DNA from: a virus
Direction: 5' to 3' (one strand)
DNA length: 64,000 bases
Virus record (IMG/VR): IMGVR_UViG_3300044815_000165
Span: 25,134 to 89,133 of that record
The stretch's first letter is position 1; each line of letters opens with the position of its first letter. A program made the translations under genes and the position numbers. Shown piece after piece: positions 10,303 through 47,090 of this stretch. A model generated the notes under the pieces. That model was not told the origin of the DNA, did not search any database, and was given only the letters and a program-made list of their open reading frames with translations.

Positions 10303-12143
10303 ACCTCTGGAACCGGCCAGGCTTCGCCTACGGTCATCTCTACGGCAACCAGGTTGCCGTCGCGTGGCCTGGTCAGGAGTGGTGCGACCGCGGTCCGCTG
10401 ATCTCGATGACGGTCGGCATGCCGCCGGACACGCTCACGGTGACCGGCGGCATGACGTGGATCATCCCGCAGAGCGTCGGCTCGTACACGCTCACCGCGA
10501 CGGCGAACGCGGTCATCGGCGCGTCGCGCACGATCACCACCATCGCGAACGCGGTCATCAAGGCGCAGCAGGCGATCTCCGCGATCGCGAACGCGGTCAT
10601 CGGGACGAGCTTCACCGACACCACCGTCGCGAACGCAGTGATCAAGGCTGCGCAGAGCATCACCGCGAGCGCGAACGCGGTCCTGCAAGGACATCAGTCG
10701 GTGACGGCGAACGCGAACGCGGTCGTGCAGGCGGCTCAGTCGGCGACGGCGAACGCGAACGCCGTGATCAAGGCAGCGCAGACGCTCTCCGCATCTGCCG
10801 ACGCCGTCATCGCTCAGAGCCACACCGTCACGTCGTCGGCCAACGCGGTGATCCAGGCAGCGCAGACGATCTCCGCCGCAGCGAACGCTGTCGTGCTCGC
10901 GCAGCAGCTCGTCACCGCGAGCGCGAACGCCGTGATCGCGCAAACCCACACCGACACCGCGAGCGCGAACTCCGTGATCGAGGCACAGCAAGCCGTGTCC
11001 GCGGTGGCGAACGCCGTCATCGAGGCGCAGCAATCGTTGACAGCGTCAGCCGACGCGATCATCGCGAACCGCCTCGCCGACACCGTCTCCGCCGATGCAG
11101 TGATCCAGGCAAAGCAGATCGTCACGGTCGCGGCCGACGCGGTGATCCAGGCCGCGCAAGGTGTCGTCGCGCAGGCGAACGCCGTCATCATCAACGTCGG
11201 CGGCACGCAAGTGTTCGTGGGTGCCGACGCCGTGATCCGGGCCGCGCAGATCGTCATCGCGCAGGCGAGCGCTGTCGTGCAGGCATCACAGATGATCACG
11301 GCGAGCGCGAACGCCGTCATCGGTGCCGAGCTGCTCCGAACCGTCGCCGCGAACGCCGTGATCAAGACGAGCTTCTCCGACACCGCGAGCGCGAATGCAG
11401 AGATCGCGTTGACGTCCGTGGTCGTCGCGAGCGCGAGCGCCGTGTTGCAGCTGCGTTCGACGATCGCCGCGAGCGCGAGCGCGGTCATCCAGGCGCATCT
11501 CGACGGGACGGCGAACGCGAACGCGGTCGTGCAGGGGCATCAATCCGTTGCAGACGTGGCGAACGCCGTCATCGCTCTCCGTCACCAGATCCAGTCCTCC
11601 GCCGATGCAGTAGTCCGCGCAGCACAGAGCTTCAGCGCAAATGCCGACGCGATCGTGCGCTCCACCATCAACCTCGTCGCGTTCGCGAACGCAGTCGTGC
11701 AGGCACATCAGGTCGTACCCGCAACTGCCGACGCCGTGATCCAGGCTGCGCAGTCGCACACAGCTGCGGCCGATGCCGAGATCGCGAACGCCATCTACCT
11801 CAGCCTCAACGCCGACGCGATCGTCAAGGCGCTGCAGACGGTGGGTGTCGACGGCAACGCGGTGATCCAGGGCAACATCCTCCAACAGCTCAGCGCGAAC
11901 GCCTTCGTCGCACAACCAGAGATGCAGACGGCGAACGCGAACGCCGTCATCATCCTGCCGTACCCGGTGATCATCGGCCTCCTCAGCAGCGTCGGAGACC
12001 TGCTCGCGTCGCTCGCGCTTGGTCTCGAGATGGACGCCAGCATCACGTCGCGCAACGACCTCGCGAGCGACATCATCGAGGATGACGGTGCGCTCGGTGG
12101 TACGATCACGGTCCGCGATGACCTGGATGGAGACCTGACATGA
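10299..12143 (+). CDS. Tandem-repeat fibrous virion protein (about 14-aa 'ASANAVI' repeats)
   Basis: ATGA overlap; more than 30 repeats of the form xxxxA(S/N)A(N/D)AV(I/V)xAx. Confidence 0.75.
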   Translation: MNLWNRPGFAYGHLYGNQVAVAWPGQEWCDRGPLISMTVGMPPDTLTVTGGMTWIIPQSVGSYTLTATANAVIGASRTITTIANAVIKAQQAISAIANAVIGTSFTDTTVANAVIKAAQSITASANAVLQGHQSVTANANAVVQAAQSATANANAVIKAAQTLSASADAVIAQSHTVTSSANAVIQAAQTISAAANAVVLAQQLVTASANAVIAQTHTDTASANSVIEAQQAVSAVANAVIEAQQSLTASADAIIANRLADTVSADAVIQAKQIVTVAADAVIQAAQGVVAQANAVIINVGGTQVFVGADAVIRAAQIVIAQASAVVQASQMITASANAVIGAELLRTVAANAVIKTSFSDTASANAEIALTSVVVASASAVLQLRSTIAASASAVIQAHLDGTANANAVVQGHQSVADVANAVIALRHQIQSSADAVVRAAQSFSANADAIVRSTINLVAFANAVVQAHQVVPATADAVIQAAQSHTAAADAEIANAIYLSLNADAIVKALQTVGVDGNAVIQGNILQQLSANAFVAQPEMQTANANAVIILPYPVIIGLLSSVGDLLASLALGLEMDASITSRNDLASDIIEDDGALGGTITVRDDLDGDLT

Positions 12144-12580
12144 GCTGCACGAACGGGTGCGACAACAACGCGTGCGTCACGTGTGGAGGCAGCGGTCCGC
12201 CCGTCTGCGTCATGCAGGGCGAGACGAAGACGTTCCTCCTGCTGGTGAAGGTGCTCGCCACGAAGGTGCCGCAGAACCTCGATCTCGTGAAGATCTACTT
12301 CACGGTCAAGGAGCGCGTCGACGACATCGCGCCGTTCATCCTGAAGCGCACCGTGGACGCCGGTGGCGCAGTCGGCGAGATCGTCATCGCGACGCCACAG
12401 GCGACGGCTGCGAACACGGGGCGCGCGACGATCACCCTCACGTCGGACGACACGAAGCTATTCAGGCCGGGCGTCGCGTACTGGTTCGACGTGTGGGTCG
12501 TCCTGCCAACCGGGGAAGAGCGTCCGGTGATCCGCCGGCGCCAGATCGCCGTCGACACCCGCATCACCATCATCCCGTAG
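12140..12580 (+). CDS. BppU N-terminal-like virion/baseplate protein
   Basis: Pattern QGET...NLD..KIYFTVKE...GRATITLTSDDT...YWFDVWV. Confidence 0.55.
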   Translation: MSCTNGCDNNACVTCGGSGPPVCVMQGETKTFLLLVKVLATKVPQNLDLVKIYFTVKERVDDIAPFILKRTVDAGGAVGEIVIATPQATAANTGRATITLTSDDTKLFRPGVAYWFDVWVVLPTGEERPVIRRRQIAVDTRITIIP

Positions 12581-12588
12581 GAGACCTC

Positions 12589-12969
12589 GTGAACGACACC
12601 CTCAAGATCGCAGCTCGGCTCAGCATCCACCCGTCTCCGTCGGCCGTCTCATCGTCCGGCCGGCCGTCGACCGACGTCGAGATCGTCGAGGGCTTCGCCG
12701 TCGTGAAGAAGCTCGACACGATGTACACGCTCGACGCCGCGCCCGCCGTCACCATCGGGATGGGCGATCTCGACGGCGCGAACTTCATCTTCATCTACTC
12801 GGACGAGTCGGTGACGGTCGAGGTGACCAGCGCGCTCGGCACGGCGCAGACCCTGCCGGGAAGGATCGTGTTGCTGATCGACCCGGCCGAGTCCGTGACG
12901 CTCATCCGCCTGACGCAGAAGAACGGCGTGACCGCGAACGTGCGGATCGTCCTGGGGCAGCTCGCGTAG
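12589..12969 (+). CDS. Putative virion protein
   Basis: AGGAG RBS with GTG start; beta-rich; last gene before the promoter at 12976. Confidence 0.55.
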   Translation: MNDTLKIAARLSIHPSPSAVSSSGRPSTDVEIVEGFAVVKKLDTMYTLDAAPAVTIGMGDLDGANFIFIYSDESVTVEVTSALGTAQTLPGRIVLLIDPAESVTLIRLTQKNGVTANVRIVLGQLA

Positions 12970-12975
12970 CGTTTG

Positions 12976-13007
12976 CGTTGACATTGTCAACGATAAACGT
13001 GTAGATT
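12976..13007 (+). promoter_or_regulatory. Sigma70-type promoter with palindromic operator over the -35 box
   Basis: CGTTGACATTGTCAACG; TTGACA-18bp-TAGATT upstream of the helicase. Confidence 0.8.
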
Positions 13008-13013
13008 CCACAG

Positions 13014-14480
13014 GTGACGGAACGTCGTGCCACCGTGACCATGCTCAGCAACGTGCGGTGCGTGGTCGACTTCAAGTACCCGGGGTTGGAAGCGAAGGCA
13101 GCGGAGAAGGAGCGCACGCGGATCGTCAACCTGCTCGACGACGCGCTCGCGATCGAGAACAAGGGTGCGCACTTCAACCCGACCGTCCAGAAGGGTCTCT
13201 GGGACGGCCGGCGTCACATGTTCTACAAGGACGGCTGCACCTTCGCGAAGGGTCTCATGCCTCGCCTGAAGAGCCTGTTGCGCGACGCGGGCTACAAGAT
13301 CATGAAGACGAAGGACGAGCGCAAGAACGTCCCGACGGAGGTCGACCTCTCCATCGTGCAGCCCGACATGCTCGCGACGATCACGCTGCGCCCGGACCAG
13401 CTCCGCGTGATCAAGACGGCGCTGCGCAAGGGCTGCGGTCTTCTCCACGTCGCGACGGGCGGTGGCAAGAGCGCCGACGCGACCGCGATCATCAAGACCC
13501 TGATCGACAAGCGAAGCCTGTTCCTGGTCCACACGAAGCAGCTCCTCGGTCAGGCACGCAAGGAGATCGCGAAGTTCCTCGGCACGATCGAGGAGTACAT
13601 CGGCATCATCGGCGACGGCAACTTCAACCCGAAGCACATCACGGTCGCCACCGTGCAGAGCTTGTCGCGCGTCACGCGTGCCGATCAGAAGAAGATCATC
13701 GCGAAGTACCTCAAGACGATCGAGGTGCTCATCCTCGACGAGTGCCACCACTCGTCGGCGAAGTCGTTCTACAAGCTCCTGCAGCGGATCGACGCGCCGT
13801 GGCGCTACGGCTTGTCCGGCACGCCGTTCGGGCTCGCTGACGGCAAGGGGCTGATGGTGGAGGCCGCGTTCGGGCCGGTGTTCGAGCGCGTCACGAACGA
13901 CGAACTGATCCAGCTCGGCATCAACGCCAAGCCGACGATCCGGATGATCGAGTCGAGCGTGCCGAAGCTCGACTCCGGGCTCGACTGGCAGAGCGTCTAC
14001 AAGGAGGGGATCGTCCTCAACACCGCGCGGAACATCCTCGTCGCCAACCACGCCGCCGCGTTCGCGAAGAAGAAGTGGCCGACGCTCGTGATCGTCCGCG
14101 AGCTGTGGCACGGCGACAACCTGGCCGAGCTGCTCCGTGATCGCAGCGTCGCGCACGCGTTCGTTCACGGACAGATGTCGACCACCGAGGTCGAGCGTCA
14201 GAAGGTGAGGCTGACCGAGGGCAAGATCCACGTGCTCATCGCGTCGCCGATCTTCGGCGAGGGTGTCGACATCCCGTCGGTGCGCGCGCTCATCGTGGCA
14301 GACGGCGGGCAGTCGACCGCGGCGGTGCTGCAGAAGGTTGGACGTGGTCTCCGATCGAAGAAGGGTGACAACCGTCTCGACGTCATCGACTTCGCAGACA
14401 CCACGCACAAGTGGTTAGCCAAGCACAGCCAGGAACGGATCGCACTCTACGAAGGCGAAGGTTTTGAAGTCTTGATGTGA
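13014..14480 (+). CDS. Superfamily 2 DNA helicase (UvsW-like)
   Basis: ATGGGKS Walker A, DECH, GLSGTP, GEGVDIP, QKVGRGLR. Confidence 0.93.
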   Translation: MTERRATVTMLSNVRCVVDFKYPGLEAKAAEKERTRIVNLLDDALAIENKGAHFNPTVQKGLWDGRRHMFYKDGCTFAKGLMPRLKSLLRDAGYKIMKTKDERKNVPTEVDLSIVQPDMLATITLRPDQLRVIKTALRKGCGLLHVATGGGKSADATAIIKTLIDKRSLFLVHTKQLLGQARKEIAKFLGTIEEYIGIIGDGNFNPKHITVATVQSLSRVTRADQKKIIAKYLKTIEVLILDECHHSSAKSFYKLLQRIDAPWRYGLSGTPFGLADGKGLMVEAAFGPVFERVTNDELIQLGINAKPTIRMIESSVPKLDSGLDWQSVYKEGIVLNTARNILVANHAAAFAKKKWPTLVIVRELWHGDNLAELLRDRSVAHAFVHGQMSTTEVERQKVRLTEGKIHVLIASPIFGEGVDIPSVRALIVADGGQSTAAVLQKVGRGLRSKKGDNRLDVIDFADTTHKWLAKHSQERIALYEGEGFEVLM

Positions 14481-14562
14481 TCTCTCGCGCGAACGAATCA
14501 GCAGAACCTGGCTTGCAAGCATCTTGACCTTCGTTGCTCTGCCGCGCTAAAAGGGACGTTCG

Positions 14563-15135
14563 ATGGTCACGCGCTCCAAGGTATCTGAGAAGCGCACCGT
14601 AGCCCAAGATCTCTGTGTCCTCTACCACGAGGCAGTTCGCAGCGTAGTTGCCCGCGAGACGAAGGCGAGCGCGACGCGCATCATGCCGACGCGCACTCTC
14701 GACGAGGTCGATGCTTCCGCGCGGAAGGCATTCCTCTCCGCCGCAACCATCTGCATCGAACTCGGTGCTGATGCGCGCGACTTCATCGCCGCGCAGTTCG
14801 CGTTGTGGCGCGAGGCATCGGCCTTCCACAAGAGGTTGCTGATGCCGTCGCCGCAGCACATGGCGACGCTCGCCGCGCGCGTGCGCTACCTCCAGCATCA
14901 GGCACGCGAACAGATCCGCGTCTCGCGCGTGATCACACGCGACGACGACGGCGGAGACTCCACGAAGAAGTGGTTCGTCGAGGAGCGCCGATTGAAGGGT
15001 CTCGCACGCATGCAGCGGCGCGATCCACTCGAGGTGCTGACCGAGCAGCCGGAGCAGTTCTCGCGTGAGTTCCTGAAGTACAAGGATGTCTGGAACGTCG
15101 TGAAGGACGTCTGGGAAGAGCGAGAGCACTCGTGA
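14563..15135 (+). CDS. Hypothetical replication-module protein
   Basis: 190 aa ORF coupled to the next gene. Confidence 0.6.
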   Translation: MVTRSKVSEKRTVAQDLCVLYHEAVRSVVARETKASATRIMPTRTLDEVDASARKAFLSAATICIELGADARDFIAAQFALWREASAFHKRLLMPSPQHMATLAARVRYLQHQAREQIRVSRVITRDDDGGDSTKKWFVEERRLKGLARMQRRDPLEVLTEQPEQFSREFLKYKDVWNVVKDVWEEREHS

Positions 15136-15701
15136 AGGAAATCAACAAGCGACACCTCGCGGCGTGGAACGTCGGGAAGAAGATCTTCGGGTACACCGGA
15201 GATCTGCCGAAGCCTCGCGGACTCCTGATCGGTGAAGCGCCGGGACCGAACACGAACGCGAAGCTCCCGCTGTTTCCGAGCCCTGCAGGCAGCGCCGCCG
15301 GCAGACTTCTCAGCTACGCGAACATCCACGCGATGGAGTGGATGGGGAAGCTCGTGCGCGTCAACCAGTGTGGAGACGAGCAGTGGTCGAGCCGTGCCGC
15401 GTGCGCCGGCCGCGTCGCGGCGACATCGTTCTTTCTCGATCCGAAGAACTTCCACGACGGCAAGCCGCTGCGTGTGCTCCTCCTCGGCGCGGATGTCGCG
15501 CGCGCATGGTCTTGCTACGGACCCTTCGGGAAGGTGACCTGGATCTTCTCCGACAAGGGAGACATGACGGATGCCGTTCGTGTCGAGGTCGCGTGGATCC
15601 CGCACCCGTCGGGACGAAACCTGATCTACAACGAGCGCAAGAACCAGCTGCGTGCTGGTCGCGCCGTTCGGTGGGCGATCGGAGAGCGTGATCAACCGTG
15701 A
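15132..15701 (+). CDS. Uracil-DNA glycosylase superfamily protein
   Basis: LLIGEAPG motif 1, VLLLG, IPHPSGRN motif 2. Confidence 0.75.
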   Translation: MKEINKRHLAAWNVGKKIFGYTGDLPKPRGLLIGEAPGPNTNAKLPLFPSPAGSAAGRLLSYANIHAMEWMGKLVRVNQCGDEQWSSRAACAGRVAATSFFLDPKNFHDGKPLRVLLLGADVARAWSCYGPFGKVTWIFSDKGDMTDAVRVEVAWIPHPSGRNLIYNERKNQLRAGRAVRWAIGERDQP

Positions 15702-16207
15702 AGCAACGATCTCAGTTTGACGCGGTCGCCGAGGAGGTCACTGCGGCGCCTTCGTGGAAGGTCATCCAACGATTCTGGTCAAGGATCAACAAAAACGGAC
15801 CGAAGCAACCGCACATGAAGACGTGTTGTTGGATTTGGACTGCTGGAACCGCAAACGGGTATGGCGTGATCTGGTGCAACGGTCAGACTCGACGTGCAAC
15901 GCATCTCGCATTCTTCCTATCACATGGACGATGGCCGAATCCATGCGCACTGCATCGCTGCGATGTTCCAGCATGCGTGCGGCACATTTTTGAAGGAACT
16001 CGACAAGAAAATATGGTCGACATGATCCGCAAGGGTCGCGATCGCAAGGCTGTTGGAGAGCGCGCATCACGCACCAAGTTGACAACGGCGCAGGTGAAGG
16101 CGATCCGCCAAGAACGTGGATCATCTCGAGCGGTCGGCAAGAAATTTGGGGTTTCCCACACCGCAGTGGTTTTGATCCGTAATGGATCAACATGGAGTCA
16201 TGTGTGA
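15698..16207 (+). CDS. HNH homing endonuclease
   Basis: CWIWT..GYG...LHRCDVPAC..H...GT..EN, C-terminal HTH; AT-richer than neighbours. Confidence 0.88.
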   Translation: MKQRSQFDAVAEEVTAAPSWKVIQRFWSRINKNGPKQPHMKTCCWIWTAGTANGYGVIWCNGQTRRATHLAFFLSHGRWPNPCALHRCDVPACVRHIFEGTRQENMVDMIRKGRDRKAVGERASRTKLTTAQVKAIRQERGSSRAVGKKFGVSHTAVVLIRNGSTWSHV

Positions 16208-19563: not shown

Positions 19564-20421
19564 GTGAAAGCCAAGAAGAACAAGAAGACGGCGGCGAAGA
19601 AGACCAAGGCGAAGAAGCCGGCGACGCCGCCGAAGAAGACGAAGCCAGTTGCGAAGCCAGCGTCGGAGGACAAGGTCGCCAAGATGGCGCCGAAGAGCAA
19701 TGCGGCGAAGGTGATCGCCGATGCCAAGAAGGCTGCACCGCCCAAGGAAAACGAGGATGAGATCATGGACCGCAGCGCGCTGAAGGCGATCGTCTCCCAG
19801 CTCAAAGAGATGGGCAGCGACATCAAGGCTCTCAAGAGCGACACCGACGAGATCCTCCAGAAGAAGGTGAACGAGGCGCTCCACGCGATGCCGAAGGAGG
19901 ACGTGCTCAAGAAGCTCGAGAGCATCGTCCCGGACAAGCTCGTTACCATCCTCAAGCGCGACTGCCTCGGGATCTTCATCGACCTCTCTGACATCTCGTG
20001 CGTCCGCTGCAAGGACAACGTGACGTGCGCGCGCGAGTTCCTCAAGAACCTGAAGGGCGGGCTCGCGGACGTCACCAAGGCGCTGCCGGACGCGGTCGTC
20101 GAGAAGGAGCCGGAGAAGGCGAAGCTCTCCCCGGCCACGCGCTACGAGGCGAAGCGGTTGGTGTTCATCCGCGACGTCCCGAACCCGAACCCGGTCGGCG
20201 ACCCGATGCACGACATGCTGCAGGCGGTGCTCGACGAATCGCCCGACACGATGGGCGAGCTGCGCGAGATCGTGGAGCGCGACTTCGAGATCGAGTCCGA
20301 CGCGGACTTCATGAAGTTCGTGACGAGCATGCGTGATCCCAAGGAGGGCATCATCAAGCTCGACGTCGACCTGAGCGAGAAGAACAAGGCCGAGCTGCGC
20401 GCAGCCGGCATCGACATCTGA
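19564..20421 (+). CDS. Hypothetical protein with Lys/Ala/Pro-rich (histone H1-like) N-terminus
   Basis: AGGAG RBS; KKTAAKKTKAKKP; central C...CxxC...C cluster. Confidence 0.7.
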   Translation: MKAKKNKKTAAKKTKAKKPATPPKKTKPVAKPASEDKVAKMAPKSNAAKVIADAKKAAPPKENEDEIMDRSALKAIVSQLKEMGSDIKALKSDTDEILQKKVNEALHAMPKEDVLKKLESIVPDKLVTILKRDCLGIFIDLSDISCVRCKDNVTCAREFLKNLKGGLADVTKALPDAVVEKEPEKAKLSPATRYEAKRLVFIRDVPNPNPVGDPMHDMLQAVLDESPDTMGELREIVERDFEIESDADFMKFVTSMRDPKEGIIKLDVDLSEKNKAELRAAGIDI

Positions 20422-20503
20422 TCAACATCTCTACCTGAACTCCGGTGAGCGGCGTCCAGGCGAACCTGTCACAGATAACCAAAAGACAATCAGGAGAACG
20501 AAG

Positions 20504-20986
20504 ATGGCTAAGAAGACTCTGTTCACAGTGACGTTGCCGGCGACCGTGTCCGTGCTCGTCGAGGCTGGCGACGAGAAGGATGCCGTGACGGCGGCGATCG
20601 AGAAGGCGAAGGCCATCCTCGGTGCCTCGGCCGGCATCCTCAGCATCGTCGGTGACGCCAAGGCGATCGCCGTCGGCGGTGGTGGCAAGAAGAAGGCGGA
20701 CGACGCCGATGACGAGCCTGCTCCGAAGAAGAAGAAGGCGGTCGTCGAGGAAGAGCCGGAGGAGGAAGAGGAAGAAGAGGAGGAGGAAGAGGAAGAAGAG
20801 GAGGCTCCCAAGAAGAAGAAGAAAGCCGCCGCCGAGGAGGAAGAGGGAGAGGAAGAAGAAGAGGAGGAAGAGGAAGAAGAGGAGGAGGAGGAGCCGGCGC
20901 CCAAGAAGAAGAAGAAGACCGACGACGACGATGACGAGAAGAAGCCGGCGGGTAAGACCAAGATCAAGCTGAAGCTCAAGGGCTGA
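20504..20986 (+). CDS. Low-complexity protein with alternating poly-Glu and poly-Lys blocks
   Basis: AGGAG RBS; three (acidic)n-APKKKK units. Confidence 0.75.
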   Translation: MAKKTLFTVTLPATVSVLVEAGDEKDAVTAAIEKAKAILGASAGILSIVGDAKAIAVGGGGKKKADDADDEPAPKKKKAVVEEEPEEEEEEEEEEEEEEEAPKKKKKAAAEEEEGEEEEEEEEEEEEEEEPAPKKKKKTDDDDDEKKPAGKTKIKLKLKG

Positions 20987-21017: not shown

Positions 21018-23270
21018 ATGCGACCGCCGGTAATCTTCGCTGAGACCAACAAGCAAGCTCGGAAGCTCCTCGACGAGGTCTACCGAGAAGCCTACCTCGA
21101 AGGGAAGATTACGGCGGTCGACACCGAGTTCGTGCCCGTCTCGCACGAGCCAGTTCTCATGTCTCTGTCTTGGGGTCGCGGGATCCGCCGCGTCATCCGC
21201 GCCGAGCTGGTGAAGGAACACCTCGCGGAGTGGCTCACCGATCCCGAGACCAAGCTCGCGTGGCAGAACTTCAAGGAGGACGCCGAGACCTGCGAGGCGC
21301 TCGGCATCCCGACTGCAGAGTTGGCGCGGAGCTTCTACATCGACGTCATGGTCGCCGGCGTGCTCCGCGACGAGACGCTGATGAAGCATGGCCTCAAGGC
21401 GCAGATGCTCCACTGGTTGAAGTGGTTCCGCCACGAGTACGGCCAGACGTTCGCCTACGTGCCACCGGGCCTGAAGAAGGCGATCGTCATGGACCCGCGC
21501 CAGGTGATGGATGACCTGCCGGCGGACGCGCTCATCGGCGCCGTCACGAAGTGGGGCAGCGCGAAGGGCGGGCACAAGACCGGCCCACGCACCCTCGAAG
21601 AGTGGATCCAGGCGATGCTGGACTACGCGGGCGACGACGCCGAGGGCACCCAGCTGCTCGCCGTCGACCATCGGAAGTACCTCAAGAAGACCGACTACTG
21701 GGACAAGTACGTCTCGGTCGATCGGCCGTTCACGCTCACCCTCATGCAGTGCGAGAGCGCCGGCGCGTACATCGACCAGCCGATCCTCCGCAAGATCCTC
21801 CGCAAGCAGGAGATCCGCATCCTCCGCGCCGAGCACTGCTTCCGCGCCGCCTCCGGCAACCCGAAGCTGAACCTGCGGTCGGGACCGCAGATGCGGAAGC
21901 TGCTGCTCGAGGAGTGGGAGTGGCCACCGCATCCTGACAACGTGAGCGACAAGACCGGCGAGTCCTCCATGGACAAGGAGGTGCTCACCTGGTGGCTGCA
22001 GAAGCATCACCTCGAGATGGCCGAGGTGAAGATGGCCTTCAACAACGCGAGCACGATGAAGGGCACCTTCCTCCAGGGCCTGCTCGACGGCGTCAGCGAG
22101 GATGGGCGGCTGCGCTCCGACCTCAACCAGATCGGCGCGAAGACCAGCGGTCGGATCTCGTCGCGCAAGTTCGACGTGCTCGTGGAGGAGACGTACATCC
22201 TCAAGCGCACGGGACTCGTCAAGACGCGCATCAAGAAGAAGAAGGCCGGCGCGAACCTCCAGAACATCCCCGCTCGCAAGGAGAAGGACCCGGACGGGAT
22301 CCGCGGCGCGTTCCGCGCACCCAACGCCGGCGAGACCACCGCGCGCGGCACGATCGCGGAGGAGCCGTACAAGCTCCTCATCGCCGACTACGCGGGCTTC
22401 CACCTGATGCTCGTCATCCACTTCTGCTCGAAGCTCACCAAGCAGTCGGCGATGCTGGACGTGATGAAGAAGTACGGCACGCCGAGCGCCGTGCACGTGT
22501 ACACGACGATCCAGATGTTCAAGAACACGAAGCCGCATTTCTGCGACGACTCGTCGTTCTCACCGTGCAAGAAGAACGGGAAGTGGAAGGAGTTCCACGG
22601 GCCGGGCAAGAGCTACTCGCTGAAGGAGTTCACGATGGACGACTGGAAGATGGTGAAGCCCATCTTCCCGGACCAGTACACGTACTCCAAGAACACGAAC
22701 TTCGCGCTCATCTTCCTCGGGTCGCCGTGGACGCTCGCCTACAACACGGGCCGCGATCCCGGCATCGAGGAGCAGCTCGAGGAGTGCAAGCGCCACTACG
22801 ACGATTGGTACGACCTGTACCCGGAGATCCCAGTCTACCAGAACCACATGATCGACCACGGCTACGAGCACGGCTGGGTGCCGACGCTCGGCGGTCGCCG
22901 CGGACACGTGCAGCGCATGCTCGAGGGTCGCGACCGCGCGGGCCGCTACATCGAAGACGAAGAAGCGCGCAAGAAGATGATCAAGCACGGCGAGCGCGTG
23001 TGCACGAACACGCCCGCGCAGGGCAGCGAGGCGGACATCGTCAAGATGGCGCTCAACCTCATCGCCAACAGCCCGAAGCTGAAGAAGCTCCGCGTGGAGC
23101 CGCTGTTCCCGGTCCACGACGAGGTCGTCTGCGAGGGTCCCGAGAGCACGAGCGTGCCGGGTCTCGAGGAGCAGATCCGGTTGATGAAGATCCCGTACCG
23201 CGAGCTGATGGATTTCGAGTTGACGGTCGAAGGCGGCATCGGTTCCGACTGGCTTTCCGGTAAACCATGA
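21018..23270 (+). CDS. Family A DNA polymerase with 3'-5' exonuclease domain
   Basis: Exo motifs AVDTE and YAGDDA; polymerase motifs GRISS..NLQNIP, ADY (motif A), KxxNF (motif B), QGSEADIVK, VHDE. Confidence 0.93.
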   Translation: MRPPVIFAETNKQARKLLDEVYREAYLEGKITAVDTEFVPVSHEPVLMSLSWGRGIRRVIRAELVKEHLAEWLTDPETKLAWQNFKEDAETCEALGIPTAELARSFYIDVMVAGVLRDETLMKHGLKAQMLHWLKWFRHEYGQTFAYVPPGLKKAIVMDPRQVMDDLPADALIGAVTKWGSAKGGHKTGPRTLEEWIQAMLDYAGDDAEGTQLLAVDHRKYLKKTDYWDKYVSVDRPFTLTLMQCESAGAYIDQPILRKILRKQEIRILRAEHCFRAASGNPKLNLRSGPQMRKLLLEEWEWPPHPDNVSDKTGESSMDKEVLTWWLQKHHLEMAEVKMAFNNASTMKGTFLQGLLDGVSEDGRLRSDLNQIGAKTSGRISSRKFDVLVEETYILKRTGLVKTRIKKKKAGANLQNIPARKEKDPDGIRGAFRAPNAGETTARGTIAEEPYKLLIADYAGFHLMLVIHFCSKLTKQSAMLDVMKKYGTPSAVHVYTTIQMFKNTKPHFCDDSSFSPCKKNGKWKEFHGPGKSYSLKEFTMDDWKMVKPIFPDQYTYSKNTNFALIFLGSPWTLAYNTGRDPGIEEQLEECKRHYDDWYDLYPEIPVYQNHMIDHGYEHGWVPTLGGRRGHVQRMLEGRDRAGRYIEDEEARKKMIKHGERVCTNTPAQGSEADIVKMALNLIANSPKLKKLRVEPLFPVHDEVVCEGPESTSVPGLEEQIRLMKIPYRELMDFELTVEGGIGSDWLSGKP

Positions 23271-24956: not shown

Positions 24957-25107
24957 GTTGAGATGGCGGAAGTAGGTAGACGCGCCAGCCTAGACGTGAC
25001 CCGATAACGGGCGCGTCGAAGCGGGTGTCTGGTAGCCAACGGGTTGCGCTGCAGCCGCGCTCGTTGCGTTCGCATCGGACTTGCTGGTTCGAGTCCAGCT
25101 CTCAACA
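24957..25107 (+). ncRNA. Expanded tRNA-like RNA (Leu/Ser-type scaffold, 151 nt)
   Basis: Acceptor GTTGAGA/TCTCAAC+A, D-arm GGCGGAAGTAGGTAGACGC, T-arm GCTGG-TTCGAGT-CCAGC; oversized interior. Confidence 0.75.
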
Positions 25108-25116
25108 CGAGGACAC

Positions 25117-34350: not shown

Positions 34351-35046
34351 ATGCAGCACGCACAGGTCAGTGCGCTCGCGCGCCTCTTCGCGTTGGAAGC
34401 GGGGAAACCGTTCCGTCGTGATCTTCCGTGCAGGGTGCTCACGGCTGATCCCGCGTGGATGTTCAACGATCCGCTTCCCGGTGCCGGGCGCGGAGCGGCG
34501 AAGAACTATCGCACCCAGTACATCGACGACATCATCTACCGACGCGGCTTCGAGTTCGACTGGCCGGCGATCGCTGACGATGCGATCCTCGTCCTGTGGC
34601 GCGTCGCCTCGCAGGTCGAGGACGCCTACCGCGTGATGCGCGGCTGGGAGTTCGAGCCGAAGAGCGAGTTCGTCTGGAACAAGCTCACCAAGAACGGCAA
34701 GAAGTGGATGGGCATGGGACGCACAGGGCGTCAGGCCCACGAGATCGCCATCATCGGCACGCGCGGGCGATCCGCGCTCGTGATGAAGGACCTCGGCGTC
34801 CGCTCCACCTTCGAGGCGCGGGTGCCCGTCTACGAGGCGAATCATCCGTACGTGCTCGAGGGCAGGGTGAAGGCGGGCAGCTACGTCCACAGCGGCAAAC
34901 CAGAAGAGTTCCGGATCATGCTAGAGCAGATGTGCAAGGGTCCGTTCGTCGAGCTGTTCGGACGACGCACGCGTCCGGGTTGGAGCGTGCGAGGCAACCA
35001 AGTATGGGACGGCGTGAGCGACCACGTCCGTGTCGTGAGGAACTGA
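34351..35046 (+). CDS. MT-A70 family N6-adenine methyltransferase
   Basis: ADPAW (DPPW-like), FVWNK, HSGKPE, ELFGRR..PGW..GNQ. Confidence 0.85.
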   Translation: MQHAQVSALARLFALEAGKPFRRDLPCRVLTADPAWMFNDPLPGAGRGAAKNYRTQYIDDIIYRRGFEFDWPAIADDAILVLWRVASQVEDAYRVMRGWEFEPKSEFVWNKLTKNGKKWMGMGRTGRQAHEIAIIGTRGRSALVMKDLGVRSTFEARVPVYEANHPYVLEGRVKAGSYVHSGKPEEFRIMLEQMCKGPFVELFGRRTRPGWSVRGNQVWDGVSDHVRVVRN

Positions 35047-44424: not shown

Positions 44425-45198
44425 TCATTTCCCAGCTCCGAGCAGACGGCTGCCGTCCTGGATCTTGTCGAGCTGCTTGGCGACCTTCGTGGTGTCACCA
44501 CCGAACAGCGCGTAGAGGCGATCGTCGAGCGCAGTGATACCGGCACGGATCTGCTTGAGCACCTCGAGCCGCTCTTCGCTGAACAGCACGAGCCCGACCG
44601 GCGGCATCTCGCGCACCGCCTGGTTGTGTGATGCCGCGGTCCCGTCGTCATCGTCGACGTCTCGCTTGAGGATGCGATCCGCAGTGTCGCCTGGCAGCCG
44701 GAACGGGTTCGTGTACTCCTCGACGTGCCACGTCAGGTTGATGCCTAAGATGGGACGCGAGTCTTCGCCGTCCTCGTCTTCGTGCTTGCGGTTGAGACCA
44801 CGCGTGGTCGTGCCGTGCATGCCGCTGTGACCTCGGTACGGGATGACGGCCTCGTACGAGATGCGGATGTAGCGCGTCCACACCAGCGCGACGGCGGTGT
44901 TCGCCACGATCTCCATGCGCGCCTTCAGCGCGTCGAGGGACTTGGACACGTACCAGGTGGTGTCGTGCTCGGCGATGAATTCGGAGCCCTCGAGCCGCAG
45001 GATGAACGACACCGTCGAGTACCCGCGCGTGTCGAGCGCCACCTTCACCTTAAGCGTGTCGATCTTCTTCGGCAAGCGTCCGTTCAGCGGCTTGGATCTC
45101 TCCTCGACGAGCGACAGCTGCGCCTTGAGCTTGGCGGCACGCTCGGCCTCGTACACCGCCAGCGCGTCATCCGTTCGACTCGATAGCTTCTTGGTCAT
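44425..45198 (-). CDS. Hypothetical protein
   Basis: GGAG RBS, ATGA coupling. Confidence 0.6.
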   Translation of the reverse strand: MTKKLSSRTDDALAVYEAERAAKLKAQLSLVEERSKPLNGRLPKKIDTLKVKVALDTRGYSTVSFILRLEGSEFIAEHDTTWYVSKSLDALKARMEIVANTAVALVWTRYIRISYEAVIPYRGHSGMHGTTTRGLNRKHEDEDGEDSRPILGINLTWHVEEYTNPFRLPGDTADRILKRDVDDDDGTAASHNQAVREMPPVGLVLFSEERLEVLKQIRAGITALDDRLYALFGGDTTKVAKQLDKIQDGSRLLGAGK

Positions 45199-46223
45199 GG
45201 TGTTCTGCTCCCTACGATGGCGGCGCGCACGCGCTCGCGTTCTTCGTTCTCGCGCGCGATCATGGCGTTCATCAGATCGCGGTCGATGTTGTTGTTGATG
45301 GCTGTCTCGACGAGCGCGTTCAGCTGCTGAGGATTGAGCGCGTCCAGCTCCCAGCTCTGGTCGCCGAACTCCTCGATGTACGCCGCCGCGCGCGAGTCGG
45401 TGATCTTGGCGGGGTTCGGCGGTGGGCGATACCTCCGGATCTGCGCCATCGTGAGCGCGAGCTTCTCTACCTTCAGGTTCGGCACACCGAACTCGCCGAG
45501 GCGCTCGCGGATGTCGCGGACCATGTCGTTGCCGCTCGGGTCATGGTCGCCGAGGTAGAGCACGACACACTGCTTCAGCTCGCCATCCTCGGCTTGCTCG
45601 CCGTCGCGATCGCCGCCCTCGAAGTTCCACCGGAAGATCGGATCAGTCTTCGTCTCGCATCCCTCGCACTTGCCTGTGTTCGAGCGGTTCTCGAACGGCG
45701 CCATGCAGTTGTCGCACTGCACCTCGACGTCGACGCCGCAGGCGCTGAGCATGCGGTCCGCGCTCGCCTTCATCGCGCTCGCCGAGCTGTAACCCTTGTT
45801 CACCATCAGCGGGACGTGGTTGCGACGCGCGATCGGTGCGAGCACGCCGGCGAGCGCCTGCTTCTCCACCCACAGCTCGACGTACCTCGGCTGGTCGGCC
45901 CACCGCGGAAGCCTGAACTGCCGGATGGCGAGGTCGACAAGCTCGTCGACGCTGTCCCACTCACCGGGCACGTCGGGCTCGCGCCCGCGGTCCTCGATGG
46001 CTTCCCAGTCGATGAGACCCGCGTACCGCGCGTCGGTGAGCATGCTCGTGAGGTTCTGGTACGTGCGCGGCGTGTTGGCGATCAGGTCGCGCGACACGAA
46101 CTGGTAGAAGAGCTGGCGCGCGGTGAGCTTCTGCCCGCCGTACTCGGCGATGATCGCATCGGCCTGCGCGATCATCGAGCGCGCGTTCTCGCGGAAGTTG
46201 GTCGATCTGAATTGTTGCTTCAT
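45195..46223 (-). CDS. Topoisomerase VI-A/Spo11-like Toprim protein with Zn-ribbon insertion
   Basis: TARQLFY, VELWVEK, GYSS, YLGDHDPSG, WELDAL; CDNC...CEGC insert. Confidence 0.75.
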   Translation of the reverse strand: MKQQFRSTNFRENARSMIAQADAIIAEYGGQKLTARQLFYQFVSRDLIANTPRTYQNLTSMLTDARYAGLIDWEAIEDRGREPDVPGEWDSVDELVDLAIRQFRLPRWADQPRYVELWVEKQALAGVLAPIARRNHVPLMVNKGYSSASAMKASADRMLSACGVDVEVQCDNCMAPFENRSNTGKCEGCETKTDPIFRWNFEGGDRDGEQAEDGELKQCVVLYLGDHDPSGNDMVRDIRERLGEFGVPNLKVEKLALTMAQIRRYRPPPNPAKITDSRAAAYIEEFGDQSWELDALNPQQLNALVETAINNNIDRDLMNAMIARENEERERVRAAIVGSRTP

Positions 46224-47090
46224 CGGAGGACGATCTTCACGTTGCCGACGGATGTGCGGACGATGACGTCTTCGGTGAGGCCACAGACGAACGCATACGA
46301 CGTGACGATCGCGACCTCCGCGAGGATGTGCGTGCCGCAGCGCTCGTACATCGCCTGCGCCTGTTTCTGGATCTGCTCGTGGAGCCACTGCATCTCGATG
46401 TTCACGTTGGCTTCTCCGTTCCGTCGCGAAAGATGGTTCCGATCGCCGCCTGGTACCACCACCACACCTCGTAGTTCCAACGCCGCTTCGTCGGGTACCA
46501 CTCGGCAGTGACGATGCGCGTCTCGCCGTCCTGGTCAGGAAAGACGGACAGCACGTGGAGGAGCGCGTCGACGTGCTTCACGCCGCCGGTTTGTCCATCA
46601 CCGTGCAGCGTCTGGTGGCGGAGCTTGTCGCCGACCTTCGGAGGCCACCACTCCGGCGCTTCCCTCGGCATCAGAGGTCTCCTCGGATGCACGCGACGCG
46701 CTCCGGGTTCTCTTTGGTGCCGACGTCGCAGTGGCAGACGCGGTCCATCGCGCAGGTGAGATTCATCTCAGCCTGGCGCTCGCACTCGGCGCTGACCGAA
46801 GCGCAGCTTGGGACGTCGGGCGCGTCGAGAGGCGGCGACGGCTGCGTTGATGGTTCGACGCATGATGGCGTCAGGAGGCTCGCCGTCACCGCGATGATCG
46901 CGGAGCCGAAGGGAGGGAACATGATCGAGAAACGTCTCATGGGATATTCCTTGGTAGTCGGTGAAAGAGTCGTAGCGGCCGAGGAACACGTTCCAGTCGA
47001 GCCCGGTCCGCTTCGCGAACTCGATCCAGCGCACGCGCATCCACGCGCCGTCGTACTTCTTGAAGAGAGGGTCGAACCTGACCTGCGTGA

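What the first reader, a model, noticed from the sequence alone, without database searches (positions are those of the whole stretch)
22383..22721. Family A polymerase with a rewired nucleotide-selection site
Seen: motif A reads ADYAGFHLM and motif B reads YTYSKNTNFALIFLG. Known: Pol I has DYSQIELR and RxxxKxxNFGxxYG. By eye, the steric-gate Glu (E710 equivalent) is His, its partner Tyr (Y766) is Phe, the triphosphate-binding Arg (R754) is Tyr, and both motif B glycines are replaced. The catalytic Asp residues, Lys, GRISS, NxxxQG and VHDE are intact, so this looks like coordinated change rather than decay. Inference: altered sugar or base selectivity (modified dNTPs or rNTP tolerance) or altered fidelity.
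Basis: partly seen in the sequence, partly recalled or inferred. Interest (0 to 1): 0.78.

Follow-up and report, generated by a model that had tools for sequence, protein, structure and literature searches.

The report
Phage DNA polymerase with histidine sugar gate
An uncultured soil-type phage encodes a well-conserved, apparently working family A DNA polymerase in which the supposedly universal glutamate-tyrosine pair that checks the sugar of each incoming nucleotide is replaced by histidine and phenylalanine, and a new glutamate appears on the neighbouring helix.

Summary
ORF 21018-23270 (+) is a 750-aa PolA with an exonuclease domain. Against an E. coli-like Pol I it reads E710H, R712M, R754Y, G763A, Y766F and G767L. 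D705, K758, F762, TGR, N845/Q849 and HDE are kept. This is not decay: about 60 relatives at 65-80% identity keep the same residues, four active-site motifs host inteins in relatives, and the alignment-based AlphaFold model is excellent (pLDDT 95.8).

The changes arose in two layers. R754Y and loss of R712 are old and shared by a broad uncultured-phage clade that keeps E710/Y766. E710H is confined to the close clade and always comes with Y766F.

One close relative (P0061) keeps E/Y/A. One unrelated singleton has Q710/F766/E852. Among 234 PolAs, Glu at 852 never co-occurs with Glu at 710.

I found no PurZ, ThyA-type hydroxymethylase, TGT/DpdA, dUTPase or RNR. ThyX and dCTP deaminase are shared with a Glu-type relative.

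Best reading: a rebuilt but functional sugar pocket (a His gate backed by a relocated Glu) in an ordinary replicase. Altered selectivity is possible but unsupported. This is a new variant of a known kind. The scan had noted this same gene once before, on the same genome.

The parts
21018..23270 (+). Family A DNA polymerase gene (750 aa; 3'-5' exonuclease plus polymerase domains, no 5' nuclease domain)
   Evidence: Pfam DNA_pol_A at 126.7 bits against a cut-off of 34.3. PHROG 17 at E 2.7e-54. AF2 pLDDT 95.8. Foldseek best matches are Bst/Klenow Pol I, TM about 0.83.
21114..21644 (+). Exonuclease motifs: Exo I AVDTEF (21114-21131), Exo II YIDVMV (21336-21353), Exo III YAGDDAE (21624-21644)
   Evidence: D35, E37, D109 and D207 lie in nearly invariant columns of the 114-sequence alignment. 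Coordinates. The Pfam exo1 hit is weak (19.4 bits, below the 23.6 cut-off).
22143..22163 (+). TGR motif, here TSGRISS (S377 = T666, R379 = R668)
   Evidence: Ser replaces Thr in 95% of the His clade. This is an intein insertion site in six relatives.
22170..22247 (+). 26-aa Lys-rich beta-hairpin insertion between the TGR motif and GANLQNIP
   Evidence: Absent from canonical PolAs. K396, K402, K406 and K409 are conserved in the Y754 clade. Modelled as two strands, 385-394 and 401-410.
22386..22409 (+). Motif A, DYAGFHLM. The catalytic Asp D457 is kept. The steric-gate position is His462 (codon CAC at 22401-22403). R712 is Met.
22536..22598 (+). HxC...C...H segment inside a roughly 48-aa fingers insertion between motifs A and B (possible small metal-binding knuckle)
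   Evidence: The pattern is kept in the His clade and several Glu-type relatives but absent in others. It is the only low-confidence stretch of the model, pLDDT 59-70. Metal binding is an inference.
22656..22721 (+). O-helix region: K547-PIFPDQ followed by motif B, YTYSKNTNFALIFLG (Y554 = R754, K558, F562, A563 = G763, F566 = Y766, L567 = G767)
   Evidence: K547 is invariant in the Y754 clade. The column is a gap in 83 of 110 canonical PolAs; 19 of them do carry Lys there.
23007..23036 (+). Motif 6, NTPAQGSEAD. N664 = N845 and Q668 = Q849 are kept. E671 (23028-23030) replaces A852.
   Evidence: Glu here is found only where position 710 is not Glu.
23112..23123 (+). Motif C, VHDE (H700, D701, E702)
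   Evidence: D701 and E702 are invariant across 114 PolAs and H700 is nearly invariant, 90% or more.

Best explanation
This is the working replicative polymerase of a roughly 118-kb uncultured phage. The floor of its nucleotide sugar pocket has been rebuilt.

In ordinary family A enzymes, Glu710 on the first turn of the motif A helix lies under C2' of the incoming dNTP. It hydrogen-bonds the dNTP's 3'-OH and is held by Tyr766 of the O-helix. Here His462 takes the gate position. Tyr766 has lost its hydroxyl (Phe566). The O-helix face towards the gate is more hydrophobic (Ala563, Leu567). A new buried carboxylate, Glu671, appears on the long palm helix next to motif A.

I infer that Glu671 pairs with His462, fixing its orientation and protonation. 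The imidazole would then both block a 2'-OH and bond the 3'-OH, keeping the enzyme a dNTP-selective, proofreading replicase with somewhat different kinetics.

The loss of Arg754 and Arg712 is an older trait of the wider clade. It is probably compensated by clade-specific basic residues: the invariant Lys547 just before the O-helix, and the Lys-rich hairpin.

Shown: the substitutions, their conservation, their joint distribution and the fold. Inferred: the His-Glu contact, retained sugar selectivity, and which residues replace Arg754.
For: - The motif equivalences hold in three independent alignments.
- The catalytic residues and exonuclease motifs are intact.
- About 60 proteins at 65-80% identity keep H/F/E, with the His codon fixed and synonymous variation in neighbouring codons.
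- Inteins interrupt the TGR motif, motif A, motif B and motif 6 in relatives. This marks them as indispensable sites.
- The AF2 model has pLDDT 95.8 and pTM 0.93. Its nearest structures are Bst and Klenow.
- Only 4 of 750 columns both split the His clade from Glu-type relatives and follow P0061 (Glu state) against P0063 (His state). All four lie in motifs A, B and 6: 710, 713, 766 and 852.
- In 234 PolAs, Glu852 never occurs with Glu710. Positions 710 and 852 change on the same tree branches. Every non-Glu gate has Phe766, and E710 with Phe766 exists as a possible intermediate.
- The singleton P0107 in another subclade repeats the Q710/F766/L767/E852 pattern without any sign of mosaicism.
- Literature: E710-Y766 is a hydrogen-bonded pair and Y766F is wild-type-like (PMC3715850). 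The gate Glu also bonds the 3'-OH (PMC7200780). The long palm helix contacts E710 and Y766 (PMC4882331). His is the invariant steric gate of Pol III alpha (PMC8485763).
- No base-modification pathway was found. The gene sits in an ordinary replication module: helicases, primase, RecA, Mre11/Rad50.
Against: - I had no access to model coordinates, so the His462-Glu671 contact is not measured.
- The joint change rests on one well-populated lineage plus one singleton. Phylogenetic inertia could therefore produce much of the association.
- P0107 also carries N845M and G667M, so it may not be a normal enzyme.
- In Klenow, E710Q and E710A are mutators with weak dNTP binding (PMC3715850). Unchanged function is therefore not the default expectation.
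- Phe at 766 is otherwise reported as unique to the two 2-aminoadenine-specific DpoZ clusters (PMC10201439).
- No enzyme of this clade has been assayed.
Confidence: 0.55

Rival explanations
1. The rebuilt pocket is an adaptation to a non-standard substrate. The polymerase would prefer or tolerate a modified base or sugar (DpoZ-like specialisation, rNTP or 2'/3'-modified nucleotide tolerance), or would exclude a nucleotide analogue present in the host.
For: - E710 is the residue that excludes rNTPs in Klenow, and its replacement relaxes sugar choice (PMC3715850, PMC7200780).
- Phe at the Y766 position is described as a substitution unique to both DpoZ clusters (PMC10201439).
- The change is fixed and coupled, which suggests selection.
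- The His-type relative G001 has a DUF7768/DUF4406-like (nucleoside deoxyribosyltransferase-like) protein and a PAPS-reductase-like protein beside its dCTP deaminase. It has no thymidylate kinase hit, while the Glu-type G005 does have Tmk.
Against: - No PurZ, ThyA-type hydroxymethylase, TGT/DpdA, dUTPase or RNR in five records. This genome and G001 together span about 118.8 kb.
- ThyX and dCTP deaminase are shared with the Glu-type phage G005.
- The authors of PMC10201439 themselves judge that Phe766 is unlikely to affect the choice of A versus Z.
- His is bulky enough to act as a gate, as in Pol III alpha (PMC8485763).
- The gene-content contrast compares one genome with one genome at about 50% protein identity.
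- Many ORFs remain unannotated, so absence is only weak evidence.
Confidence: 0.2
2. The change tunes fidelity or speed rather than substrate class. The phage replicase would be a natural mutator or antimutator, or would have altered fingers-closing kinetics, with proofreading compensating.
For: - E710 and Y766 control the partially closed fidelity checkpoint. E710A, E710Q and Y766A are mutators, and Y766F shifts the open/closed equilibrium (PMC3715850).
- The exonuclease motifs are intact.
Against: - No direct evidence.
- The close-clade proteins are about 75-80% identical with strongly conserved motifs, which shows no obvious sign of hypermutation.
- The added Glu671 suggests restoration of the pocket rather than loosening.
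Confidence: 0.15
3. The polymerase is inactive or decaying, or the odd motifs are an artefact of assembly or alignment.
For: - In Klenow, R754, E710 and the motif B glycines are important.
- P0107, the only other non-Glu gate found, is a singleton with further unusual changes.
Against: - The same residues appear in about 60 independent assemblies from JGI, ENA, NCBI and Logan.
- The 750-aa frame is open, with GC3 of 0.93.
- The catalytic triad is intact.
- Inteins are maintained in its motifs.
- Model confidence is high.
- It is the only PolA match in this record (other polymerase families were not searched), and it sits in a full replication module.
Confidence: 0.03

Closest known systems
Bacterial DNA polymerase I large fragments (Klenow, Bst LF, Klentaq)
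   Same: - The same two-domain fold: Foldseek TM about 0.83, and the family profile matches Klenow along nearly its whole length, residues 7-604.
- The same catalytic Asp/Asp/Glu, K758, F762, R668, R682, H734, N845, Q849 and H881 equivalents.
- The same exonuclease motifs.
   Different: - E710H, Y766F, A852E, T666S, R754Y, R712M, G763A and G767L.
- A 26-aa Lys-rich hairpin after the TGR motif.
- About 48 extra residues in the fingers, with an HxC...C...H pattern.
- Only about 18-25% identity.
Glu-type members of the same uncultured-phage PolA clade (for example P0061 on a 119-kb contig and P0065 on the complete 117,941-bp IMG/VR genome G005)
   Same: - The same architecture, insertions, Tyr at R754, loss of R712, and FPDQY/K547 motif.
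- The same genome size and replication module, and the same ThyX and dCTP deaminase.
   Different: They keep Glu710, Tyr766 and Ala852. P0061 already has Leu767, which looks like a permissive background.
DpoZ, the 2-aminoadenine-specific PolAs (phiVC8-like and Wayne-like clusters; PMC10201439)
   Same: A phage PolA with an exonuclease domain. Phe at motif B position B4 (= Y766), which that survey reports as unique to the two DpoZ clusters.
   Different: - No PurZ in this genome or in four relatives.
- No close sequence relationship to any deposited phage: the best tblastn identity in INPHARED is 25%.
- In the 2023 survey the conserved motif positions, which include the gate A2, are described as strictly conserved in all 19 clusters. 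Here the gate is His. That DpoZ itself keeps Glu is my reading of that general statement, not something I checked.
Steric-gate histidine of C-family Pol III alpha (E. coli H760; PMC8485763)
   Same: A His side chain proposed to contact the deoxyribose and clash with a 2'-OH. It shows that His can serve as a sugar gate in a high-fidelity replicase.
   Different: An unrelated fold and family. The His sits on a fingers helix, not on the palm motif A helix. The resemblance is functional only.

Membership tests
Family A DNA polymerase (Pfam PF00476) | Significant match to the family profile over the polymerase domain | tested here: met
   126.7 bits against a cut-off of 34.3. PHROG 17 at E 2.7e-54. 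56 PDB PolA sequences at E of 1e-3 or better.
Family A DNA polymerase (Pfam PF00476) | Catalytic carboxylates of motif A (D705) and motif C (D882, E883) | tested here: met
   D457, D701 and E702. D701 and E702 are invariant, and D457 is nearly invariant, in 114 sequences.
Family A DNA polymerase (Pfam PF00476) | Klenow-like palm, fingers and thumb plus exonuclease fold | tested here: met
   AF2 pLDDT 95.8 and pTM 0.93. Foldseek best matches are Bst and Klenow, probability 1.00, TM about 0.83.
Family A DNA polymerase (Pfam PF00476) | O-helix Lys758 and aromatic 762 | tested here: met
   K558 and F562.
Family A DNA polymerase (Pfam PF00476) | O-helix Arg754 (triphosphate contact) | tested here: not met
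   Tyr554. Tyr is shared by 94 of the 234 aligned PolAs, all from this uncultured clade.
Family A DNA polymerase (Pfam PF00476) | Steric-gate Glu710 paired with Tyr766, called universally conserved in PMC4882331 | tested here: not met
   His462 and Phe566. The family assignment stands on fold and catalytic residues. These two features define the canonical pocket rather than the fold.
Proofreading PolA (3'-5' exonuclease, PF01612) | Exo I DxE, Exo II D, Exo III YxxxD | tested here: met
   D35/E37, D109 and Y203/D207 in conserved columns. The Pfam hit itself is below its cut-off (19.4 against 23.6 bits).
[quoted passage not shown] | N-terminal 5' nuclease domain and high similarity to Pol I | tested here: not met
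   No 5' nuclease Pfam domain. About 22-25% identity to bacterial Pol I.
DpoZ (Z-genome PolA) | Phe at motif B position B4 | tested here: met
   F566. The feature is taken from PMC10201439.
DpoZ (Z-genome PolA) | Genome also encodes PurZ (adenylosuccinate synthetase homologue) | tested here: not met
   PF00709 is absent from G000 and four related records, although the control genomes all matched. G000 and G001 together span about 118.8 kb.
DpoZ (Z-genome PolA) | Sequence membership in the phiVC8-like or Wayne-like cluster | tested here: not met
   The best match to any of 50,697 deposited phage records is 25% identity.
DpoZ (Z-genome PolA) | Preference for dZTP over dATP | not testable with these tools
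   Needs an enzyme assay.

The most novel reading that the evidence does not exclude
This clade would be the first natural family A replicase in which the sugar-sensing carboxylate has moved from motif A to motif 6. That would leave a His-Glu dyad as the gate. The dyad would give a changed reading of the 2'/3' positions of the incoming nucleotide: for example, tolerance of ribo- or 2'-modified nucleotides, or better exclusion of 3'-deoxy or arabino analogues made by soil bacteria. The enzyme would then be both a natural example of active-site residue relocation and a new scaffold for engineered polymerases.
Probability: 0.25. Interest if true: 0.8.

Novelty: new variant of a known kind. Interest (0 to 1): 0.6.

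Why it matters
Glu710 and Tyr766 are treated in the literature as universal in family A polymerases. They are central to how these enzymes reject ribonucleotides and mispairs. A 2023 survey of 19 PolA subfamilies reports strict conservation of the crucial motif residues, which include the gate position.

A large natural lineage that has replaced the pair shows that the family A sugar pocket has a second workable design. The replacement has been kept under selection in a proofreading replicase, with a compensating Glu on another helix. A three-residue swap between two natural enzymes about 70-75% identical (P0001-type and P0061-type) would test that design directly.

If selectivity differs, this is a ready-made natural scaffold for incorporating modified nucleotides. 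If it does not differ, it is a clean case of compensated active-site evolution.

The wider clade's loss of Arg754 raises a second, independent question: how is the triphosphate held?

Tried and rejected
- Single-sequence AlphaFold gave an unusable model (pLDDT 33.8). The alignment-based job replaced it.
- Model coordinates are not exposed, so I could measure no distances (His462-Glu671, Lys547-triphosphate site). Literature searches for residue-level neighbours of E710 gave only the statement that the long palm helix contacts E710 and Y766.
- The 119-kb contig of the key Glu-type close relative P0061 could not be reached through viral contigs or metagenome contigs. Metagenome loci could not be searched as records.
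- Host assignment failed. No clade member is present in 185,579 species genomes (one search failed for lack of conserved columns) or in INPHARED. Cluster look-up gave no accessions or organism names.
- Z-genome reading rejected: no PurZ.
- Hydroxymethyl-pyrimidine, deazaguanine and dU readings have no support: no ThyA-type, TGT or dUTPase. RNR is also absent.
- Recombination as the source of P0107's shared states: sliding-window identity shows no segment closer to the His clade.
- Looked for relatives of P0107, to see whether a Gln-gate lineage exists. It is a singleton.
- PDB and atlas searches of the 357-aa protein next to dCTP deaminase in G001 gave only a weak DUF7768/DUF4406 lead.
Full report
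**Setting**

The window is bases 25134-89133 of an 89,133-bp IMG/VR phage record, 76% complete by CheckV and 64% G+C. Related contigs of 115-119 kb suggest a genome of about 118 kb.

The finding lies in ORF 21018-23270 (+), 750 aa, with GC3 of 0.93. Its neighbours form an ordinary phage replication and recombination module:
- a UvsW-like helicase (13014)
- a DnaB-like helicase (16192)
- a Toprim primase (18176)
- RecA (25081)
- an Mre11-like phosphoesterase (27846)
- a Rad50/SbcC-like ATPase (31455)
- an MT-A70 methyltransferase (34351)
- a PDDEXK nuclease (36101)
- on the other strand, the large terminase (42013) and a topoisomerase-like protein (45195)

Window 22383-22721 translates to residues 456-568, from ADYAGFHLM to YTYSKNTNFALIFLG.

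The protein is a family A polymerase: Pfam 126.7 bits and PHROG 17. It has a confident Klenow-like fold. The alignment-based AlphaFold model has pLDDT 95.8 and pTM 0.93, and its best structural matches are Bst and Klenow at TM about 0.83.

I aligned it with an E. coli-like Pol I that carries DYSQIELR and RRSAKAINFGLIYG at positions 705 and 754. The substitutions are E710H (H462), R712M, R754Y (Y554), G763A, Y766F (F566) and G767L. D705, K758, N761 and F762 are kept. The same equivalences hold on 234 sequences.

TSGRISS, IRGAF, SAVH (H734), NTPAQG and VHDE are present, as are the three exonuclease motifs.

**It is not decay**

A search of 5.8 billion proteins found about 60 relatives at 65-80% identity from JGI, ENA, NCBI and Logan assemblies. 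Nearly all read DY[SA]GFHL[VM] and QYTY[SA]KNTNFALIF[LMK]G.

In 13 related loci plus the window, the His codon is always CAC, while the adjacent Ser, Gly and Leu codons vary synonymously.

Relatives carry inteins at four sites. The sites are after T376 (TGR motif), before D457 (motif A), after N559 (motif B) and after G669 (motif 6). These are exactly the active-site motifs. Such sites are the classic homes of inteins in indispensable enzymes (general knowledge).

**Two layers of change**

An exhaustive HMMER search of 1.84 billion representatives returned 53 clusters at E of 1e-30 or better.

Across them, Tyr at R754 and a non-basic residue at R712 characterise a broad uncultured-phage clade whose gate and partner are otherwise canonical: DYSGFEL... 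and ...KNNNFNLLYGG. More basal members keep Arg754.

This clade has gained conserved basic residues that canonical PolAs mostly lack:
- the invariant K547 just before the O-helix, in a K-x3-FPDQY motif
- R383 and K384
- four lysines in a 26-aa hairpin inserted after the TGR motif
- K423

These are candidates to hold the triphosphate in place of Arg754. That is an inference.

His at the gate is much younger. On a maximum-likelihood tree a fully supported 20-row clade contains three branches:
- the 18-row His core
- P0063, with His, Phe and Gly763
- P0061, which keeps Glu710, Tyr766 and Gly763 but already has Leu767

The three-way split among them is unresolved.

I asked which columns separate the 62 His-type proteins from 27 Glu-type relatives and also follow P0061 (Glu state) against P0063 (His state). 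Only four of 750 columns qualify: 462 (E710H), 465 (I713 column, Met to Leu), 566 (Y766F) and 671 (A852E, motif 6 NTPAQGSEAD). The core clade also has T666S in the TGR motif.

Among 234 aligned PolAs, the four-position patterns at 710, 754, 766 and 852 are:

| 710 / 754 / 766 / 852 | Count |
|---|---|
| E/R/Y/A | 111 |
| H/Y/F/E | 63 |
| E/Y/Y/A | 24 |
| E/Y/F/A | 3 |
| Q/Y/F/E | 1 |
| other E710 or D710 patterns | 32 |

Glu at 852 is never found with Glu at 710, and no non-Glu gate has Tyr766. On the 74-row tree, positions 710 and 852 change on the same branches, with no discordant row.

The Q/Y/F/E protein, P0107, sits in a different, well-supported subclade. It also has Leu767 and Leu at 713, and shows no segment of raised similarity to the His clade. 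However, it is a singleton on a 3-kb contig and has other odd changes, N845M and G667M. I therefore count it as a hint of convergence, not proof.

E to H needs two nucleotide changes, by way of Gln or Asp. E/F proteins (P0069, P0074, P0106) show that Phe766 can precede loss of the Glu.

**Mechanistic reading**

Four published points bear on this.
[quoted passage not shown] E710A, E710Q and Y766A are mutators that fail to close the fingers, while Y766F is close to wild type (PMC3715850).
- In Bst the gate carboxylate lies 3.1 A from C2' and also bonds the dNTP's 3'-OH (PMC7200780).
- A simulation study notes that the long palm helix contacts E710 and Y766, and calls both residues universally conserved in the family (PMC4882331).
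- Position 852 is on that long helix (residues 648-683 in the model), one turn after Q849. In other PolAs it is small or hydrophobic, usually Ala.

A buried Glu appearing there, only when the gate Glu is gone, fits one picture: relocation of the carboxylate and formation of a His462-Glu671 pair. Phe566, Leu567 and Ala563 would repack the O-helix face that used to donate the Tyr hydroxyl.

His can act as a sugar gate. It is the invariant proposed gate of Pol III alpha (PMC8485763).

My best reading is therefore a second workable design of the same pocket in a normal, proofreading replicase. I could not measure the His-Glu distance because model coordinates are not exposed.

**Is a non-standard nucleotide involved?**

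The 2023 PolA survey reports Phe at B4 (= Y766) as unique to the two DpoZ clusters, although its authors doubt that it affects the choice of A versus Z (PMC10201439). I therefore looked for modification pathways.

G001, a His-type relative of 79.8 kb, overlaps this record and adds about 29.7 kb upstream. Together the two cover about 118.8 kb.

PurZ, ThyA-type enzymes, TGT/DpdA, dUTPase and RNR are absent from this record and four relatives, while the control genomes matched.

The part missing from our contig encodes ThyX, a dCTP deaminase-like protein, a PAPS-reductase-like protein, a RyR-domain protein and a 357-aa protein with a weak DUF7768/DUF4406 (deoxyribosyltransferase-like) N-terminus.

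ThyX and dCTP deaminase also occur in G005, a complete Glu-type genome of 117,941 bp with 51% PolA identity. G005 additionally has a thymidylate kinase and a Nuc_deoxyrib_tr-like protein. No Tmk match was found in the His-type records. That contrast is one genome against one genome, at a distance where many genes differ.

Nothing here points to a replaced base. ThyX plus dCTP deaminase looks like ordinary dTTP supply. Many ORFs remain unannotated.

**Comparison and novelty**

No member of the clade is in INPHARED, where the best match is 25% identity. None is in 185,579 prokaryotic species genomes. The host is unknown.

The protein is a family A polymerase by fold and catalytic residues. It fails three features of the canonical pocket: Arg754, Glu710 and Tyr766. 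It shares Phe766 with DpoZ but lacks PurZ and any close kinship to deposited phages.

I rate it a new variant of a known kind. The same gene was noted once before by the scan, on this same genome (e1-6073756). That note agrees with the observation and adds nothing independent.

**Limits**

- The association of 710, 766 and 852 rests on one populous lineage plus one singleton.
- Function is untested.

Noticed in passing
relatives of window 21018-23270 (proteins P0019, P0032, P0039, P0040, P0047, P0056, P0058, P0061, P0100 and others): Across the clade the PolA gene hosts inteins at four distinct sites. All four are inside active-site motifs: after T376 (TGR), before D457 (motif A), after N559 (motif B) and after G669 (motif 6). 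P0100 (1400 aa) carries two. The window's own copy has none.
   Followed up: partly
window 22536-22598: The fingers insertion contains H-x-C-x7-C-x9-H (HFCDDSSFSPCKKNGKWKEFH). The pattern is kept in many but not all clade members, and it is the only low-confidence part of the model. It may be a small zinc knuckle next to the O-helix.
   Followed up: partly
window 22170-22247: A 26-aa Lys-rich beta-hairpin (ending ...TRIKKKKA) is inserted between the TGR motif and GANLQNIP. It is conserved throughout the Tyr754 clade and absent from canonical PolAs. It is a candidate for DNA or triphosphate contacts.
   Followed up: partly
window 25015-25108: ARAGORN calls a 94-nt tRNA-Cys (GCA) between the SSB-like gene and recA. 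That is unusually long for a tRNA. Another first-stage note (e1-6073757) reads the same spot as a Leu-like tRNA with insertions.
   Followed up: no
window 19564-20986: Two ORFs just upstream of polA (285 aa and 160 aa) are extremely Lys/Glu-rich, with long poly-E and poly-K runs. They have no Pfam match.
   Followed up: no
L029 (G001) 10897-16179: In the part of the genome missing from this contig, a His-type relative has a tight gene row: a 682-aa RyR-domain protein, a 357-aa protein with a weak DUF7768/DUF4406 (deoxyribosyltransferase-like) N-terminus, a dCTP deaminase-like protein, then a PAPS-reductase-like protein. ThyX lies about 5 kb upstream. The Glu-type genome G005 instead has thymidylate kinase next to its dCTP deaminase.
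   Followed up: partly
protein P0107 (JGI contig of 3,056 bp): A singleton PolA from another subclade has Gln at the gate with Phe766, Leu767 and Glu852. It also has N845M, G667M and Y706Q. It may be a convergent second case or an aberrant enzyme.
   Followed up: partly
window 34351-35046 and 45195-46388 (-): An MT-A70 family methyltransferase, and a protein matching a PHROG annotated as DNA topoisomerase (E 6.5e-88) that has no Pfam hit.
   Followed up: no
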